DNA of 64,000 bases, taken from assembly GCA_951406725.2 (NCBI GenBank), contig OX597825.1, positions 4,154,001-4,218,000 on the forward strand. Reading direction: 5' to 3'. A model generated the notes under the pieces. It saw nothing but the letters and a program-made list of their open reading frames with translations, had not been told where the DNA came from and did no database searches. Positions 36,062 to 50,167 of this stretch are shown in pieces. Source of the DNA: Octopus vulgaris (taxonomy: Eukaryota). Position numbers and translations under genes: made by a program. Position 1 is the first letter of the stretch, and each line of letters starts with the position of its first letter.

Positions 36062-36263
36062 TTTCAACCGTTAGCACAAGGCGAGAAGCTGAAGAGAAGG
36101 GAGAAAGTGTATTACTTTGACACCAGTGATTATCTGGTACTTATTTGAACGACCCCGAAAAGAAGAAAGGCAATGGCAACATTAGCGGGCTTGAACTCAG
36201 AACGTAAGGCGGGACGCAACGCCGCTAATCATTTTACCTGGCGTGCTAAGAATTCTGCCACCT
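36062..36263 (-). mobile_element. Degenerate SINE family B monomer
   Basis: GACCCCGAAAAGAAGAAAGGCAA...TTGAACTCAGAACGTAA...GCGTGCTAAGAATTCTGCCA matches the family-B reverse complement. Confidence 0.75.
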
Positions 36264-37006: not shown

Positions 37007-37215
37007 AAGGTGGCGGGCTGGCAGAAACGTTAGCACGCTGGGCGAAAAGCTGTATTTCGTCAGTCTTAAGGTTCTGAGTTCAAATTCCGCCGAGGTTGAC
37101 TTTGCCTTTCATTCTTTCGGGTTCGATAAATTAAGTATCAGTTGTGTACTGGGTTCTATCTAATAGACTAACCCACTCCCCTAAAATTTCGGGCCTTATG
37201 CCTAGTGTGTCAAAG
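37007..37215 (+). mobile_element. SINE family B monomer (tail B) with TSD
   Basis: AAGGTGGCGGGCTGGCAGAAACGTTAGCACG...GAGTTCAAATTCCGCC (B box); tail CCCCTAAAATTTCGGGCCTTATGCCTAG; TSD AATACATAAACATAT (36991-37005) / AATATATAAACTTAT (37216-37230). Confidence 0.88.
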
Positions 37216-39004
37216 AATATATAAACTTATTTACCCTTTTTACTATTATAAGTTTACATTTAATATGTTGTAGAATTCAATATATTGAATATGGTGATGG
37301 GCTTAGCATAATTGATGTCCTTACACAATTACTTTAATGATATTCTATATCTCATGAAAATTTGGCCATATGATTCCCATATAATTGTAAAATATTTAGT
37401 CAAACTTAATTCTAACCATACCTAATGACACCCAACGCACATTCACACCCACTGCGCATTCGCATGCACACACACATAGACACACATACACCTATGAGGC
37501 AGATTTATGTAACAGATGATCTATATGTTACACAAAGCCGAAACTTTAAATTACTTCAAAACATCACTACCTGGTTTGATTTCATTATTACTACTTTTGA
37601 AATATTTGGAGACGCATTTTACGCCTATTTGATTGAGAATTGTAGAAGATGACGGTCTATGTTAATGTGAGTTTAAGAAATATAAGAATTGTACAGATCA
37701 TAGCAATAAAAACATTGAATACACGATGCAATTTAACCAGAAGCAAACGATCATCTTTAGATATTTTAAACAAGAATAAATGTCAAATAATTGAAACAGA
37801 TAACGTATAAAAATCCTGATTCAAAACAGTACCTTCGTTTCATATACCATCCTCTTAAACACACAAAATCCGTTCATTTACTTGATAAAATTGGTATGCT
37901 CAATTATATAAAACATTATAAAATTTTGCCAACGAGAGAATTGGAAAGAATATTCTTTCAGTGTACTGAGTGTTCTGTATAGAATGATTTACCTATGGTT
38001 AAGCTGTTCCTCAATAATATCGGTTCAGGTAATGTTATCAACAGTTTAATTAAAGACTTGCATATGTCTTTTGTCCTTTTGTTGTTGTGTCCATTGTTTC
38101 TTCTCGTTGGACATTTACAGGTTTGTAAGCAAACAGGGCGGGGAAAGTAAAACCTAACCAGGTGGCCGCTTTTAAAAACAGCAGGAATGAGCCACAAGGA
38201 CGTAACGTAAAATAGTTGAATGTGTGCAGTAAAACAGTGCCCAGCACCTATTCATATAGAATTAATCTAAATTAATCTGAATTAATCTAAAGACGAGATG
38301 GTGAAGATGCCGACGACCGCTCGGTTCAAAATCTCACTTGACCTCAAGTGGCCTGAACTCTTTACATGAACAGCACCCTGTACATAACTCCATGTCCCCC
38401 TACATGACCTTGCATTTTGCTTTTTGAGCCAAAAAATTAACTAACTAACTAACTAACTAACTAAATCGATATTAATGAAATTGACCATTCACTGATTTGC
38501 TCTATTTCCCACCAAAACAATACAATTTATTTCAGTCTCTCTCTCTCTCTGTCTCTCTCTCTCTCTCTGTTTCTCTGTCACACTCTCTCTCTGTCTCTCT
38601 ATCAATTTTGTAAATTGTACGTGAGTATGTGAGCGTGTGTGTGTGTGTATAAGCTTGAGCATACGTAGATGTATATATTTATGAGCGATTGAAGGCGGAG
38701 AGGTGGGTGTAGGCTGGAAGGTCTAGTACAACAGAAGTTCTGAAATAATTGTAATTTTTCCAAATACTAATGGTGAGAAGAAACTATTTGAATGTTAACT
38801 CAAATCTCCAAGATTTCGATGTTCAGTAAAATAAAATTGAGAGAATCACCCGAGGGAATATCTAGAATCATTTTAACTAACTCAAAGGGAATACAAAACC
38901 CAAATTTCCTCCGGAAACGGTAGTGGAATATGTCAGAATCTGCATAATTAATGAGGAGTAGTTGTAGAGAATTGGCAGGCGCCATTAAATATGTCAGAGA
39001 CATA

Positions 39005-42964: not shown

Positions 42965-43960
42965 ATCTGTCTGTCTGTCTATCTATATGTGTGTGCGCGC
43001 GTGTCTACGTACGTATGTATGTGTGTGTACGTGTGTGGGTTGGTGAATGTATGTATATATAATTATATCTGTGTCACTACGAGTGTTTTTGTATCTACAT
43101 CTCCGAGCGTGCGTATGGCAAAACATTCGTTGGCTGGACTAAATGTTATCAATGAAACGCTGTGTTGATTTACGACAGACGATCGACGCATTTAATGTCT
43201 TTCTCTGAAAGATAAAATATAATTTGAGAAAGATTTCTTTTTATTTCAATCAGAAGCATTTAAAATCAAGTCACGCATTAAATATATGAGTAAAGTGTTT
43301 TGTTTAGTTGTATTTTGAGGATTTTTTTACTCACTGACTTATTGCCAACTATCTTAGTAGAAGTAATATTTTGATCTGATATTTTCTTTTAATGTTCTTA
43401 TACTATAACTGTGTGAACGTGTAAATCTTGCTTTTGAGAATAGAATTATCAAATAATGGCCAAATTACCTCAGTGGCTTAATCGTTATTATGTAGTATCT
43501 TCGATATCATTAACTAAGTATTAATTAATAAATATTTGATTGCTCACTCAATACGCTAATCTGCTCAACAACATCAATAATCTATTCTGAATACAGTCTC
43601 TCTTTATAATCAATGAACAATATTTTGCAACACATTTCGGTCAAAAGCTAATAAACGTAGATTTGCTCCATTCCAACTTCAATCTCATGGCCTGCTCCAT
43701 GTTTACTTTGCCACTATAAATTATGTATCTAGGCTGTCTTCCTTATTATGAAAGTAAAAAACCCATCGTGCATTCTATTGAAATTTAGTTCTGCTAGATC
43801 TGTTAAACTAGAGATGCAATGTAAAATATCGCTAAAATATCATTCTCAACTGGTGTATTTAACTTCAACTTTTCTATGTGGAAAATCCCTCATAGAAATA
43901 ATAAAGCGTTATTTGATGAAGATTTCATTCCATATTTCAATAATTAATTAACTATACATG

Positions 43961-44577
43961 CTCATTTCTACTCTAGGCACAAGGCTCGACATTTTGGGGG
44001 AAGGGGCCAATCGATTAGATCAACCCCAGTATGCAGCTGGTACTTAATTTATCGTCCTTGAACTGATGAAAAGCGAAGTCGACCTCGGCGGAATTCGAAC
44101 TGAGAACGTAAGGTCATACGAAATACCGCAAAGCATTTCTTCCGACGTGCTAACGTTTCTCATTCCTTTATTGCCCACAAGGGGATAAACATAGAGGAAG
44201 CAAACAAGGACAGGCAAACGGATTAAGTCGATTACATCGACCCCAGTGCGTAACTCGTACTTCATTTATCGACCGCAAAAGGATGAAAGGCAAAGTCGAC
44301 CTCGGCGGAATTTGAACTCAGAACATAACTACAGACGAAATACCTATTTCTTTATTACCCACAAGGGTCTAAACACAGAGGGGACAAGCAAGGACAGACA
44401 AACGCTTTAAGTCGATTACATCGATCCCAGTGCGTAACTGGTACTTGATTTATCGACCCCGAAAAGATGAAAGGCAAAATTGACGTCGGCGGAAATTGAA
44501 CTCAGAACGTAACGGCAGACGAAATACGGCTATGCATTTTGCCCGGCGTGCTAATGCTTCTGCCAGCTCGCCGCCTT
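43961..44577 (-). mobile_element. SINE family B trimer (tail A, tail A, tail B)
   Basis: Units 44577-44345, 44344-44161 and 44160-43961, each with the B box and core GAGTTCAAATTCCGCCGAGGTCGAC; candidate outer TSD TAACTATAC at 43949-43957 and 44581-44589. Confidence 0.9.
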
Positions 44578-47121
44578 AAATAACTATACGTATTATATTA
44601 TCACATGCTTTGTATTCACATTATATCTTTAGATAACCATATATTTAATACATTGCAGGAATAGAATTGTATTGTGTATATATTAGTATAAGATGAATCG
44701 ATTTAGTTTCATTGAAGTGATATGGCTTCACTCTGCGATTGATCGTAGTACACTATTAAAACAGATATCCAAACACGATTCTAAACGGAACAGCCATTCT
44801 AATAAATAACATACGAAAATCTCCATAAAATATCGTCGAAATTGTGTGGATAAGTTTCTATGGGCACGTTCCTGTTTTGCTTTTATATAAATATTAGGTA
44901 ATTGTCACTGGCTTTCCGAGTTAACACTTGTTCCCGGTATGAATGTTGGTCGAAACTATTTACACATCTATGAATAGGATACTTGATATCATTCCGATTT
45001 GAATACAATGGCAAATGTACACATTATTCTAAGTTCATATATAACATTTACTCAGGAGCTTACAATTTGTTTGAGAAGCGCCCATTAAAGGGATTGTAGA
45101 ACTTCACTGTGATGGTGCCGGTGGGGGGTCAAAGACAAGAATCGAACCTGGTGACAGTTGAAATCAGAACAGTGTGCGTACATACTTGGATGTATTTGTA
45201 TGATTTGCTAACATTTTGATGACTTCTTGGCACTCGAAGCATTACTGTTTCACCCAGTGGGTGTTGTGGTATAGGTGCATGTGCATATTATGTGTGGCGT
45301 CTGCGATAGATTATGTCAATACCGTAATTTCACTGTTTAAATTCAGACTCTCTTTTAACATTGATTCCTATCATTAGCTCAGTGAAGACATTTTGCCAGA
45401 AGAAAAAGTCGATAAATCGAATTCAGTATTTGGTTAGTAATCATTATAACATCCCCAATCCCACCCCGTGCACACATATACAATTTGATCATGGTGGGTA
45501 GGAATCGTAGCACAAATTAATAAATTGTAACAAACAAGTTATTTGATTAAATATAACACCTGCAGTTGAACAATATTATTGGAATGGCATACGTAATTAT
45601 GAAAAATTGGGTGACATTAGCAGAATTGAATATCTGCCGCCACGTTAAATAAAAAAAAGCAACTTTATCTACGAAGATGATTGTAATGGCCAAAAGTGAT
45701 ATAACAAGCAACAAAATGGCTGGTGACAGAATCGTTGGTGGATCGGAAATATATGCAACACGGTATTTGTAGCATCGATTTATGGTTTTAGCTCAAAACT
45801 TGCCGTGATCAACAGTGTATCAATCCTGCTGGGGGAGGGGTGATACAATAGACTAAATCACTCTCTCTCCACAATTGCTGGCCACGTGCCTACATCAAAA
45901 TTCATTATTACAAGCGACAACGTGTCTCATATAATACTGTACTCCGACTATAACACAGACTCGTGACATTTCTGCTCTTTTACGGTTACATTTGCTGATA
46001 TGGGCTGATATTTAATGAAGATCATTTTCAAACTGCCTGTTCAAGATGTTTCATGCCGTTTGGTGTTCAGTGATTGGCACAAAAGCATCAACATGTCTAA
46101 TTTTCTCTTCCCTAGAGCATTCACTAATTATGAATCCAATATTTACGTCCACGTAATGAGGATGGAGGAATAAGCTGTAGGCAAGTGAATTATTCACTGC
46201 GGCTTCTGATTTCGGTCAGAGACATTTCATTCCGTTTACGTCATCGATGCCTTCGGGAGATGCATTGCGTCAGAGCTGACCATCCTTCTTCCCGAACCAA
46301 GGCAGCATTTTATTTCTGGTTGCAAGGAAGGCGATATTTAATTTCATTAAATGTTTCCATGATATTCACATAAGTTGGTCTTTAGAATAGAATCTAGTTC
46401 ACCTTAGAACATTCAGCTGAGTTGTATCGTGTAATATTATTAATAACTAGCTATTTGTATCGAGCGAATTAATAGCATTAATTGTCTTTTAATATCATCG
46501 TATCGATTGAAGAGATCAGTCCGCTCTTTACTTGAGAATATCTCAATAAATTTGAAGAAATTAATTGTTTCATACGCTAATGGTAATCGATATCAACGGT
46601 ATATATAATTCGCTTAAGAAGATAAGGAATAAATCTTTGTATGAACTCCAGTGTCTATGTAGCTATTAATTATAAAAGTATATTGACCAAAAGAAGAAAG
46701 TATAAATCACTGACGATCTGTAACTGTGTTTTTAAGCCTCTTGAAAATTAACGAATTTTACCTGGAGAGACAACGTGATTTGTAATGCCCAGTCACGCAG
46801 TTAAATTGAGTAAAGTGTAGTCTCTCGGCCTAATTCTTGCTGACTTACATTTTTTCGTATTTTAAAAATATTCTAATTTAGGGACACGTTATTCTCTTTA
46901 ATATTACTTTATGTAAACTATGAAGTTGAACCCGATTACCCTGCACGTGCACGCACGCCCCCCCCCCACACACACAAACACACACACATACACACACACA
47001 TAGAGTATAACTGTAGAAGCTACATTTATTGTCAGTGATTTCTTCAATAGTTATGAATCACATAGTTTAGACGACCGATATCCCTGATTTTTCTCGCCAT
47101 ATCTCTTTTTCTAAATTTACA

Positions 47122-48388: not shown

Positions 48389-48706
48389 CATACAAACATA
48401 TGCATGCATATACATATATATATATATGTGGGTGTTCTCTGCGGGAGTGTGGGAGTGTGTGTATTTGTACATATATGTGATTGTGTGAGTGTGCGTGTGC
48501 GTGTGCGAGTGTATGGAGAAACGGGTGAAGGAATTAATACTTTAATATATAAATATCCATTATTAAAATTTTGTATAACCCTCACAAGTTAATAATTGGA
48601 ACTTTGCGATATCTTGCTGTCAAATTCTTATTAATATAATCAGACTTATATTAAAAATAAACCATGTTAACAAACACGCGTCATCTGCTAATATTTATAA
48701 GCCTCA

Positions 48707-49260
48707 ACGAAATGCTTGGTGGTATTTCGTTTGTCTTTACGTTCTGAGTTCAAATTCCGCCGAGGTCGACCTTGCCTTTCGTCCTTTCGGGGTCGATAAA
48801 TTAAGTCCCAGTGACGCACTGGGGTCGATATAATCGGACTTAATCCATTTGTCTGTCCTTGTTTGTCCGCGGCGTGTTTAGCCCCTTGTGGGTAGTAAAG
48901 AAATATGTATTTCGTTTGTCTTTACGTTCTGAGTTCAAATTCCGCCGAGGTCGATTTTGCCTTTCATCCTTTCGGGGTCGATAAATTAAGTACCAGTGAC
49001 GCACTGGGGTCGATATAATCGGACTTAATCCATTTGTCTGTCCTTGTTTGTCCGCGGCGTGTTTAGCCCCTTGTGGGTAGTAAAGGAATAGGTATTTCGT
49101 TTGTCTTTACGTTCTGAGTTCAAATTCCGCCGAGGTCAACTTTCCCCTAAATACTCACGGGGTCGATAAAGTAAGTATCATTTGCGTACAGGGCTCGATC
49201 TAATCGACTGCCTCCTTCTCCCAATATTTCGGGCCTTTTGCCTAGAGTAGAAAAGAAAAA
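48707..49260 (+). mobile_element. SINE family B trimer (tail A, tail A, tail B), 185-bp period, with 17-bp TSD
   Basis: (G/T)GTATTTCGTTTGTCTTTACGTTCTGAGTTCAAATTCCGCCGAGGTC at 48721, 48906 and 49091; TSD AATATTTATAAGCCTCA (48690-48706) / AATATTTGTAAGCTTCA (49261-49277). Confidence 0.92.
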
Positions 49261-50167
49261 AATATTTGTAAGCTTCATTTATAATGCCGTAGAAGATACA
49301 ATCTATTCTACATTAAAATCGTTTCTGCGCATGTTAAAACCAGCCTTATACTAAATTTAACACAGAACATGTCACACAACTGCAGCCATATATTTTAAGA
49401 GAGATTTATCTAAATGCATATCTCAGTACTTTTTTCACAATATCAAGAAATCAACTACAGTAGTTCAACAATTCTAATTTTGTTCATAATTTCATTGCAT
49501 TTAATATAATATCATGCAAAGGAGATTCCATTTATAGTATCCAAGCCAGGTTTCCATACTAGACAATATACAATACTTGAGTTTCATTTTTCGTCAAATT
49601 CTGTCGCTCTTTTTCTCTCTGTGTTTCCTGTTTTAGAATTAAACATTTTATGCCACAAACCCCACCCACATTCTCATATTTTTACTTACCGTTATTTTAA
49701 TATTGTTTGTAAGGAAATTAATTTTATCAGCTTATCAACCAACATATAAACAATTGCATGGAAGTTAAGTTTCGATATAAAACAACACAACGAGATATAG
49801 ACTATAATTTCTCTATTTTAATTAACGTAATTCTGTACGACATTCTTTTATCACAAAATTGAGGTGCATTTTATCTTGCTAACATTCAACTATTCAACAC
49901 AAAGAGAAATACTAAGCCTCGACTCGTCTGGCAAGTATAACTGCCAGAAAAAGATCGACGAAAAATGTTTAACAATATTAAATCGAATCAATACAAATCG
50001 CGTACTCGAGGCAAACTAGCTTTCAACATTAATGTCACATTTTTTTCCAGTCCGATGCCTTTTCAATTGTTATATTTACATCACACCAAAATGGTAAAAA
50101 AAAAAAAGTGAATCTTCTCTGCATCTTCACATTCATATACGTCTCTGCTATTCATAATATGTAACCA

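What the first reader, a model, noticed from the sequence alone, without database searches (positions are those of the whole stretch)
43949..44589. Self-nesting SINE trimer: tail-A copies inserted into the tRNA head of another copy
Seen (minus strand): a full head+core+tail A joins at GGTATTTCG to core+tail A, which joins at AGAAACGTTAGC to a near-complete head+core+tail B. Both junctions fall inside the head upstream of the B box, at two different sites. The three units are mutually diverged, and one candidate TSD (TAACTATAC) brackets everything. Established: many Tx1-clade elements are target-specific for multicopy small-RNA genes or repeats. Inference: tail-A SINEs preferentially integrate into their own family's head with a homologous 5' junction, regenerating one intact Pol III promoter in front of a growing array.
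Basis: partly seen in the sequence, partly recalled or inferred. Interest (0 to 1): 0.75.

Follow-up and report, generated by a model that had tools for sequence, protein, structure and literature searches.

The report
Composite multi-unit SINE, copied whole
This three-unit repeat is one copy of a very abundant composite SINE whose units are joined at the same two points all over the genome; it was likely inserted here ready-made, after rare landings of tail-A copies in a hot spot of the SINE's own head had likely created multi-unit source genes.

Summary
On the minus strand, 43958-44575 holds head+core+tail A, then core+tail A, then near-complete head+core+tail B. A 14-nt direct repeat (13 of 14) brackets the whole.

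The junctions are not local events. The exact tail A|GTATTTCG 24-mer occurs 26,764 times in the 2.8-Gb genome, and tail A|AGAAACGTTAGC 2,627 times. Tail A followed by a full head start occurs 4 times. The same A-A-B trimer recurs on other chromosomes, and a second A-A-B array lies in this window.

Arrays have 2-7 units and often end in tail A, so "(A)n-B always" fails. Whole arrays carry single target-site duplications (19 of 39, control 1.8%).

The proposed hot spot exists. 18 of 23 inspected loci show a tail-A element inserted exactly at G|GTATTTCG of a resident head. These leave a head remnant (1 to ~63) and an 11-17-nt duplication, so the 5' junction is not homologous. They are about 300 times rarer than remnant-less junctions.

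B units in arrays belong to one subfamily (B*). Repeat preservation fits the age of the A units.

Best reading (0.55): rare nested insertions made composite source genes, and their read-through transcripts spread as units. In-situ scarless self-nesting is not excluded (0.2).

The parts
44576..44589 (.). Upstream copy (in element orientation) of the target-site duplication, TTAAATAACTATAC on the plus strand
   Evidence: family D3: 14 nt, 13 of 14 identical to 43944-43957. It abuts the head start. Score 12 in the repeat test, where 1.8% of control pairs reach 10.
44344..44575 (-). Unit 1: full head (model 1-47), core, and tail A ending ...AAAGAAATAG
   Evidence: nhmmer gives monoA positions 1-232. 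This unit was one of the 8 seeds of that model.
44161..44343 (-). Unit 2: core plus tail A, starting at GTATTTCG (model 48/49). The junction with unit 1 is the genome-wide A|48 junction.
   Evidence: monoA 48-230. 86% identical to unit 1. A 100-nt query across the junction matches 51 places over nearly its whole length at 90-100%, the window's own included. A near-consensus exact 24-mer of this junction type occurs 26,764 times.
43958..44160 (-). Unit 3: head from model position 15 (AGAAACGTTAGC), core, and tail B of subfamily B*. The junction with unit 2 is the genome-wide A|15 junction.
   Evidence: monoB 15-212. B* score 7 of 7 diagnostic sites. An exact 24-mer of this junction type occurs 2,627 times. 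Best genomic relatives are 85-87% identical.
43944..43957 (.). Downstream copy of the target-site duplication, TTAATTAACTATAC on the plus strand
   Evidence: family D3.
48707..49256 (+). Second array of the same family: a 5'-truncated unit (from model ~34) with tail A, then core plus tail A, then core plus tail B*. Both junctions are at GTATTTCG.
   Evidence: Units 1 and 2 are 97% identical to each other but about 89% to units of other arrays. Unit 3 scores 6 of 7 for B*.
48690..48702 (.). Upstream copy of the duplication flanking the second array (AATATTTATAAGC)
   Evidence: score 11, 12 of 13 identical.
49261..49273 (.). Downstream copy of the duplication flanking the second array (AATATTTGTAAGC)
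37009..37216 (+). Monomeric head+core+tail B element (B* score 5 of 7), a free-standing relative of unit 3
36063..36263 (-). Older, diverged monomer of the generic B type (B* score 0 of 7)

Best explanation
The trimer is one TSD-flanked copy of a composite SINE (head, then core+tail A units of 184 nt, then core+tail B*) whose junctions are identical genome-wide, and it was likely reverse-transcribed and inserted here as one multi-unit cDNA rather than assembled at this locus.

Shown:
- The two junctions are fixed to the base and occur in thousands of copies.
- Whole arrays carry single target-site duplications.
- Tail A's last ~50 nt match the 3' end of an L1-like LINE (APE, RT, zf-RVT domains).
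- Tail-A elements do insert by ordinary target-primed reverse transcription at G|GTATTTCG of resident heads. These events leave a head remnant (1 to ~63) and an 11-17-nt duplication.

Inferred:
- A few such nested insertions hit source genes, one with a B* element and others with A elements.
- The inserted copy's intact head would then drive Pol III transcription through its own tail A into the remainder of the target. The majority sequences contain no run of four T.
- The partner enzyme would copy this composite RNA from the last tail, giving remnant-less arrays with fresh duplications.
- Unit number then changes by further nested hits in source genes and by local duplication or loss of units.
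For: 1. Fixed junctions.
- The A|48 24-mer occurs 26,764 times, the A|15 24-mer 2,627 times, and tail A plus 0-3 nt plus a head start 4 times. Reversed-pattern controls give 0.
- In an unbiased 1.264 Mb, 46 intact tail-A ends are followed by GTATTTCG in 21 (plus 2 degenerate forms), by GAAACGT in 2, and by non-SINE flank in 21.

2. The same A(1-232)-A(48-)-B(15-) trimer lies at L019, L020 and L141. A-B(15) dimers lie at C1:132038, L144 and L151.

3. Single flanking duplications. 19 of 39 A-containing arrays score 10 or more, against 1.8% of mismatched flank pairs, 8 of 25 A monomers and 33 of 138 B monomers. The window's second array is 5'-truncated at about position 34 and still has a 13-nt duplication.

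4. Array B units are subfamily B*.
- 19 of 22 A>B48 units score 5 or more of 7 diagnostic sites, against 7 of 94 B monomers.
- Among B copies that carry GTATTT, 6 of 11 B* have an upstream tail A, against 2 of 24 generic B (p 0.006).
- In remnant-bearing loci the direct B targets are generic in 4 of 5, against 3 of 22 in remnant-less arrays (p 0.009).

5. Rates.
- GTATT starts 4 of 44 non-SINE flanks, and 77 of 1,729 GTATTT sites lie in continuous heads.
- Motif preference alone therefore predicts about 0.4% of tail-A insertions in heads.
- Remnant-bearing events are 91 against 26,764, or 0.34%. By contrast, 50% of tail-A ends sit at junctions.

6. Repeat preservation.
- 9 of 21 arrays ending in B have a detectable duplication, like 6 of 12 full-length A monomers.
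- Simulation gives detection of 0.72 at 6% divergence and 0.28 at 12%.
- The outer event therefore looks as young as the A units.

7. L184 is a founder-like locus: [head 6-66][full A][B* 48-213, score 7 of 7].

8. Targets with deletions that remove the B-box region (L188), or lie just before it (L202), were hit. The nested events therefore act on DNA copies.
Against: - The terminal B* unit is about twice as far from its majority sequence as the A units of the same array are from theirs: 0.112 against 0.058, with B greater than A in 23 of 25 rows. All nine rows from the unbiased sample go the same way.
- The last A unit is slightly more diverged than the first: 0.061 against 0.051, in 31 of 45 arrays.
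- A star test shows no more substructure in B* than in A: ratio 0.873 against 0.861.
- This 5'-to-3' gradient is what in-situ growth predicts. I can explain it only by older lineage history of the 3' units in source genes, which is inferred and not shown.
- I found no sibling arrays sharing position-specific private variants. First and second A units are interchangeable across 45 arrays: 0.9058 against 0.9053.
- Junction types combine freely (48-48-15, 48-48-48-14, 48-15-48, 15 alone). That fits recurrent events as well as descent.
- No composite transcript was seen, because no RNA data could be used.
- The repeat-preservation argument rests on 21 arrays and a calibration from 12 monomers.
Confidence: 0.55

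Rival explanations
1. In-situ self-nesting. Each junction would be a separate insertion of a tail-A RNA at G|GTATTTCG, or at AGAAACG, of the head already present at that locus. The 5' end would be resolved by annealing of the new cDNA to the homologous head upstream, so no remnant or inner duplication is left and the array grows at its 5' side.
For: - The hot spot is real.
- There is a 5'-to-3' gradient of divergence: B* 0.112 against A 0.058 in 23 of 25 rows, and last A greater than first A in 31 of 45 arrays.
- L169 holds a 1.9%-diverged first unit in front of units at 9.1% and 7.4%.
- Junction types combine freely.
- B is never found upstream of a position-48 junction.
- The generic B majority sequence reads GGCATTTCG, so many B heads lack the site.
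Against: - All 18 demonstrable hits kept a remnant and a duplication, including hits on A-type heads, where homology was available.
- Half of all tail-A ends would have to be homing events, which is more than 100 times the rate predicted by the site motif.
- Generic B copies that carry GTATTT are rarely hit (2 of 24), against 6 of 11 B*.
- Outer duplications of A-B* arrays are preserved like those of A monomers: 9 of 21 against 6 of 12.
- Arrays truncated inside their first unit beyond position 48 show no head remnant upstream. I inspected five such arrays (C12:245298, C9:192713, L017, L151, L158). None has a clear duplication either.
Confidence: 0.2
2. Template switching during each retrotransposition. 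The reverse transcriptase would copy a B* or A RNA from its tail, leave it at position 48 or 15 of the head (a pause, or the 5' end of a cleaved RNA), and resume at the 3' end of a tail-A RNA. Arrays would then be made afresh from monomer RNAs, each under one duplication.
For: - Arrays have single duplications.
- Tail A is complete to its last base at every junction.
- Position 48/49 lies at the 3' edge of the loop of a predicted 13-bp hairpin in the head.
- Switching does occur in this family. L212, L217 and L218 carry a partial head (about 5-27) in front of a full element, inside one flanking repeat. L213 has four 27-nt head starts.
- Units within an array are more alike than between arrays: 0.926 against 0.902, in 36 of 45 arrays.
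Against: - End-to-end joins to a full head are almost absent: 4 against 26,764.
- No free-standing A monomer in the unbiased sample starts at position 48. The truncated starts listed are 15, 37, 110 and 125.
- It does not explain why the acceptor is always tail A, nor why B* jumps far more often than A.
- Remnant-bearing loci whose target carries deletions around the B-box region (L188, L202) need a DNA target.
Confidence: 0.12
3. Purely DNA-level tandem duplication. One old duplication of the 184-nt unit would be followed by unequal crossing-over or replication slippage at each locus, with no role for reverse transcription in making or spreading arrays.
For: - Local duplication clearly happens. 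Units 1 and 2 of the window's second array are 97% alike but about 89% to other arrays.
- L165 repeats flank plus units.
- L203 is a 20-copy satellite of a 68-nt head fragment.
- Within-array identity exceeds between-array identity in 36 of 45 arrays.
Against: - The junction sits exactly at the 3' terminus of tail A, as a retrotransposition end does.
- Tens of thousands of dispersed arrays each have their own duplication.
- Two different junction sites and A-B* chimeras cannot arise from duplicating one unit.
- Most arrays have units 4-15% apart.
Confidence: 0.05

Closest known systems
Tandem-like SINE arrays of the form TSD1-(SINE)n-TSD1 in the blood clam Scapharca broughtonii (Martelossi et al. 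2024, PMC11481361; I read passages only)
   Same: One duplication brackets the array. The first unit has a complete tRNA-related head, and inner units are truncated at one and the same head position. The host is also a mollusc-type genome rich in SINEs with conserved central domains.
   Different: In that description the first and inner units also have truncated 3' tails. Here tail A is complete to its terminal base at every junction. Here there are also two junction sites, a different tail (B*) on the last unit, tens of thousands of copies, and remnant-bearing loci that show how a junction can arise. The paper proposes unequal recombination between duplications. It does not propose nested insertion followed by spread as a unit.
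Complex (dimeric or trimeric) SINEs made by fusion of modules, as reviewed in the introduction of PMC4758252 (passages read). Examples such as Alu are from my recall.
   Same: A composite of SINE modules behaves as one retrotransposing unit under one promoter-bearing head. Template switching or recombination are the usual explanations for module exchange.
   Different: Known dimers and trimers have a fixed number of modules. Here the number of 184-nt units varies from 2 to 7, and each inner unit ends in a complete LINE-derived tail.
Target-specific non-LTR retrotransposons: Tx1-clade elements in small-RNA genes and microsatellites, R2 with homology-assisted 5' junctions, and Dictyostelium TRE elements near tRNA genes. 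All are from my recall and were not read here.
   Same: There is a preferred insertion point inside a Pol III-type repeat. The candidate partner LINE is L1-like (APE, RT, zf-RVT domains; best solved relatives are human L1 ORF2p) and sits in (ATCT)n repeats.
   Different: The head site takes only about 0.3% of events that can be shown. That is about what the short site motif and the SINE's abundance predict. Most tail-A insertions go to varied AT-rich sites with 11-18-nt duplications. Clade membership of the LINE was not tested by a tree.
SINE-derived satellites of squamates (Vassetzky et al. 2023, PMC10702118; abstract only)
   Same: Tandem repeats are built from a part of a SINE.
   Different: Those are satellite-like loci with many copies at few places. 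Here arrays are short (2-7 units), lie at roughly tens of thousands of dispersed places, and each has its own duplication. True satellite offshoots exist here only as rarities (L203, L213).
CORE-SINE superfamily, of which the octopus OR2 SINE is a listed member (passage in PMC4758252)
   Same: By my recall, the core (…GCCTTTCATCCTTTCGGGGTCGATAAATTAAGTACCAG…) resembles the MIR/CORE central domain.
   Different: This was not tested.

Membership tests
LINE-dependent SINE | Flanking target-site duplications of variable sequence | tested here: met
   8 of 25 A monomers, 33 of 138 B monomers and 19 of 39 A-containing arrays score 10 or more. Control pairs reach that score in 1.8%.
LINE-dependent SINE | 3' tail shared with an autonomous LINE | tested here: met
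   the last ~50 nt of tail A align with four LINE 3' ends. The copy at L105:3955-7358 (minus strand) has Exo_endo_phos, RVT_1 and zf-RVT domains.
LINE-dependent SINE | tRNA-derived head with A and B boxes | tested here: inconclusive
   ARAGORN finds no tRNA in the window or in four of five majority sequences even at a relaxed threshold. It makes one weak call, for generic B only, at an 80% threshold. Rfam gives no tRNA match. The B-box-like GAGTTCAAATTCC was seen by eye only.
LINE-dependent SINE | High copy number, dispersed | tested here: met
   283 units in 1.264 Mb. 26,764 exact junction 24-mers spread over the contigs.
TSD1-(SINE)n-TSD1 tandem-like arrays (PMC11481361) | One duplication pair around the whole array | tested here: met
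TSD1-(SINE)n-TSD1 tandem-like arrays (PMC11481361) | First unit with a full head, inner units cut at the same head position | tested here: met
   Inner units start at model 48/49, or less often at 15.
TSD1-(SINE)n-TSD1 tandem-like arrays (PMC11481361) | First and inner units with truncated 3' tails | tested here: not met
   Tail A reaches its terminal ...AAATAG at the junctions, the same end as in free-standing copies.
Site-specific (Tx1-like) retrotransposition | Most insertions at one defined target sequence | tested here: not met
   21 of 46 tail-A ends lie in varied non-SINE flanks. Demonstrable head hits number 91 against 26,764 junctions. The rate expected from the motif alone is about 0.4%.
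Site-specific (Tx1-like) retrotransposition | Partner LINE belongs to the Tx1 clade | not tested
   Only domain content and best solved relatives, human L1 ORF2p, are known. No tree was built.
SINE-derived satellite | Long arrays at few loci, without per-array duplications | tested here: not met
   Arrays have 2-7 units, lie at thousands of places, and carry duplications.
CORE-SINE superfamily | Conserved central CORE domain | not testable with these tools
   No reference sequence is held. The resemblance is from my recall only.

The most novel reading that the evidence does not exclude
A SINE that homes into its own promoter. Tail-A RNA would be reverse-transcribed at G|GTATTTCG of a resident head, and the new cDNA would anneal to the homologous head upstream. 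One 184-nt unit would thus be added without a scar, the Pol III promoter would be kept, and arrays would grow in place. This would be a retrohoming-like, homology-assisted cycle not described for SINEs.
Probability: 0.2. Interest if true: 0.8.

Novelty: new variant of a known kind. Interest (0 to 1): 0.45.

Why it matters
It explains a large share of one of the commonest repeats of this 2.8-Gb genome. About half of all tail-A ends lie inside arrays.

It also shows, with traceable intermediates, one way in which complex SINEs can arise. A monomer lands in the head of another copy. Its own promoter would then read through into the target, and the composite would become a new transposing unit.

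For annotation, arrays of this family should be counted as single insertions, not as nested events.

If in-situ scarless growth were shown instead, it would be a new self-targeting mode for non-autonomous retrotransposons.

Tried and rejected
**One fixed trimeric master with differentiated units.** Rejected.
- Unit number varies from 2 to 7 and junction types combine freely.
- First and second A units show no position-specific likeness across 45 arrays.
- The best genomic matches to the window's junction differ from it only by the window copy's private changes.

**A canonical nested signature at position 15.** Not found.
- The pattern gave 16 matches.
- Of the 11 distinct loci among the 14 fetched, none has a 15-start unit after the inserted tail.
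- Three loci instead have a partial head duplicated inside one insertion.

**Cross-species and resequencing check.**
- No RNA holder was listed.
- The contigs of four runs from coded organisms B-E reach from the flanks into the array's ends, but none bridges the units. Unit number in relatives therefore could not be read.
- A second lay at 93% likeness returned only short family-level pieces. The first try of that call did not complete.

**Literature.**
- Searches for octopus or mollusc SINE arrays and for SINE template switching gave analogues but no description of this family's arrays.
- I did not search beyond these four term sets. Supplements were not opened.

**Other.**
- The search of earlier findings returned nothing for this genome.
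- The tRNA call failed in ARAGORN and Rfam.
- Five arrays truncated inside their first unit gave no clear duplication, so they could not serve as proof of unit-wise insertion.
Full report
**What is there**

On the minus strand, 44575-43958 reads as three head-to-tail units.
- Unit 1 (44575-44344, 232 nt) has a full head, a core and a tail ending ...AAAGAAATAG ("tail A").
- Unit 2 (44343-44161) starts at GTATTTCG, 48 nt into the head, and again ends in tail A.
- Unit 3 (44160-43958) starts at AGAAACGTTAGC, 14 nt into the head, and ends in a different tail ("tail B").

The units are 86%, 78% and 80% alike pairwise. A 14-nt direct repeat, TTAA[A/T]TAACTATAC with 13 of 14 identical, abuts both ends.

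Two things were not in it. A second array of the same build, A-A-B, lies at 48707-49256 on the plus strand. Also, no tool recognises the head as a tRNA.

**The junctions are genome-wide**

The window is G000:C12:4154001-4218000 in a 2.8-Gb genome.
- A 100-nt query across the unit 1|unit 2 junction found 2,299 candidates. Forty were scored, giving 53 matches. Of these, 51 span nearly the whole query at 90-100% identity, and many lie 184 nt apart.
- The tail A|GTATTTCG 24-mer occurs 26,764 times.
- The tail A|AGAAACGTTAGC 24-mer occurs 2,627 times.
- Tail A followed within 0-3 nt by a full head start occurs 4 times.
- Reversed-pattern controls gave 0 in each case.

**An unbiased sample**

I took 1.264 Mb in six blocks: the window with 100 kb on each side, and 200 kb from each of five other contigs. 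I annotated it with two profile models built from monomers, which gave 283 units.

Of 46 intact tail-A ends:
- 21 are followed by GTATTTCG, plus 2 by degenerate forms of it.
- 2 are followed by GAAACGT.
- 21 are followed by non-SINE flank.

There are 19 arrays. The last unit carries tail B in 12 and tail A in 4, and is cut short in 3. The prediction "(A)n-B always" therefore fails.

In loci chosen by junction matches, arrays reach 7 units (L161). An A|15 junction also occurs inside an A array (L169). The exact architecture of the window's trimer recurs at L019, L020 and L141, and A-B(15) dimers lie at three further loci.

**Arrays behave as single insertions**

Flanking direct repeats scoring 10 or more were found for:
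- 19 of 39 A-containing arrays
- 8 of 25 A monomers
- 33 of 138 B monomers
- 1.8% of mismatched flank pairs (control)

The second array in the window starts at model position ~34 and still has a 13-nt repeat, 12 of 13 identical.

**The proposed hot spot exists but looks different**

A pattern for a head interrupted shortly after GTATTTCG by a new head start gave 91 matches. The 30 fetched loci are 23 distinct places.
- 18 read [head 1 to ~63][1-4 A][full tail-A element][unit starting at GTATTTCG].
- 2 have the remnant and the A element but no following unit.
- 2 have a B element inserted instead.
- 1 is a 20-copy satellite of a 68-nt head fragment.

In the 18, the stretch from position 49 to about 63 is present twice. 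In six of them it carries private features of the target:
- The same internal deletion appears on both sides of the insert in L188 and L202.
- Shared substitutions appear in L182, L192, L195 and L200. The script behind one search stopped with an index error at the last locus, L210.

These are ordinary target-primed insertions with 11-17-nt duplications at G|GTATTTCG. They also hit copies with deletions around the B-box region. The 5' junction is not homologous, however, and a head remnant stays behind.

**How often**

- Non-SINE flanks of tail A (n = 44) start with ATAT in 14, GAAA in 5 and GTAT in 5. GTATT starts 4 of 44, against 0.15% expected (p 7e-7).
- The two head sites, GTATTTCG and GAAACG, fit this general preference.
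- Of 1,729 GTATTT sites in the sample, 77 lie in continuous heads.
- Motif preference alone therefore predicts about 0.4% of tail-A insertions in heads.
- Remnant-bearing events make up 0.34% of junction counts (91 against 26,764).
- Yet 50% of tail-A ends lie at junctions. The remnant-less junctions are thus about 300 times too many to be ordinary hits.

**Which B units sit in arrays**

- The B units after tail A form a subfamily, B*, defined by 7 diagnostic sites.
- 19 of 22 position-48 units score 5 or more, against 7 of 94 B monomers.
- B* is B-like from a few bases after the junction onward, so it is not an A/B recombinant.
- The generic B majority sequence reads GGCATTTCG, so part of the bias could be a site effect.
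- Among copies that do carry GTATTT, however, 6 of 11 B* have an upstream tail A, against 2 of 24 generic B (p 0.006).
- In the remnant-bearing loci the direct B targets are generic in 4 of 5 (p 0.009 against remnant-less arrays).
- Unit 3 of the window's trimer scores 7 of 7. The last unit of the second array scores 6 of 7.

**Ages**

- Within arrays, B* is 0.112 from its majority sequence and the A units are 0.058 from theirs. B exceeds A in 23 of 25 rows, including all nine rows from the unbiased sample.
- The last A unit is slightly more diverged than the first: 0.061 against 0.051, in 31 of 45 arrays.
- Substructure does not obviously explain it.

Against it stands the preservation of the outer repeats.
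- 9 of 21 arrays ending in B have a detectable repeat, like 6 of 12 full-length A monomers.
- A simulation of my detector gives 0.72 at 6% divergence and 0.28 at 12%.
- The outer event therefore fits the age of the A units better than the divergence of B*.
- I conclude, with moderate confidence, that the excess divergence of the 3' units was inherited from source lineages.

**Other dynamics**

- Units within an array are more alike than between arrays: 0.926 against 0.902, in 36 of 45 arrays.
- In the window's second array, two units are 97% alike but about 89% to units elsewhere. Local duplication therefore also changes unit number.
- L165 shows a DNA-level duplication that includes flank.
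- Partial head duplications inside single insertions (L212, L217, L218) show that the reverse transcriptase can switch templates at 5' ends.

**Partner**

- Four LINE 3' ends in the sample share their last ~50 nt with tail A.
- One copy, at L105:3955-7358 on the minus strand, has Exo_endo_phos, RVT_1 and zf-RVT domains.
- Its endonuclease is closest to human L1 ORF2p among solved structures.
- It is followed by (ATCT)n, and the same repeat appears upstream of it.

**Relatives**

Short contigs of public runs from four coded related organisms run from the flanks into the ends of this array.
- Organism C has contigs at both ends.
- Organism E has a contig at the head end, with about 94% flank identity.

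The insertion therefore predates their split. No contig bridges the units.

**Verdict**

- The trimer is best read as one copy of a composite SINE family that spreads as a unit.
- The composites were probably founded by rare nested insertions at a preferred site in the head.
- The inserted copy's promoter would then read through into the target.
The homologous 5' junction and locus-by-locus growth are not supported for the bulk of arrays, though they are not excluded.
- The closest description in print that I found is the TSD1-(SINE)n-TSD1 arrays of a blood clam (PMC11481361, passages read). Those differ in having truncated inner tails.

Noticed in passing
L105:3955-7358 (minus strand); also block positions C3:97245, C3:97790 and C12:222521 (outside the window): The L1-like LINE that shares its 3' end with tail A is followed by (ATCT)n at all four 3' ends seen. 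In the L105 copy the same repeat also lies upstream. It may be specific for this microsatellite.
   Followed up: partly
L203 (G000:C5:87.874 Mb) and L213 (G000:C1:163.187 Mb): Small satellites made of head fragments: 20 tandem copies of head 1-68, and four copies of head 1-27, each in front of a full tail-A element.
   Followed up: partly
L212, L217, L218: The flanking repeat encloses a partial head (about positions 5-27, plus a few A) followed by a full tail-A element. This is a 5' partial duplication within one insertion, as expected from template switching at the RNA's 5' end.
   Followed up: partly
Unbiased blocks, for example C1:21823-22194, C9:139320-139736, C9:143113-143543: Tail-B elements often sit head-to-tail, with the next full head 16-23 nt behind the modelled end of tail B (9 such pairs in 1.264 Mb). 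Either tail B has a longer AT-rich end than modelled, or B elements tend to insert just upstream of a head.
   Followed up: no
Block C12:10236-10700 (L022, outside the window): A composite of [head 11-60][A 2-232][A 48-232] lies inside another tRNA-like sequence (GGCCTAGTGGTTAGGGTA ... GTGGTTTCGATTC) at a GTATT site. The tail-A preference for GTATT may therefore extend to other tRNA-like heads.
   Followed up: no
L165 (G000:C1:1.775 Mb): About 50 nt of the upstream flank, plus the start of the array, is repeated downstream of the array. This is a DNA-level duplication of flank and units together.
   Followed up: no
Family majority sequence, model positions 31-60: The head is predicted to fold into a 13-bp hairpin (31-43 with 48-60, loop 44-47). 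The common junction lies at the 3' edge of the loop. Relevance to nicking or pausing is unknown.
   Followed up: no
listing, for example G000:C1:28604027 and 28604244: A|15 junctions spaced 217 nt apart indicate arrays of a second period, with units spanning positions 15-232.
   Followed up: no
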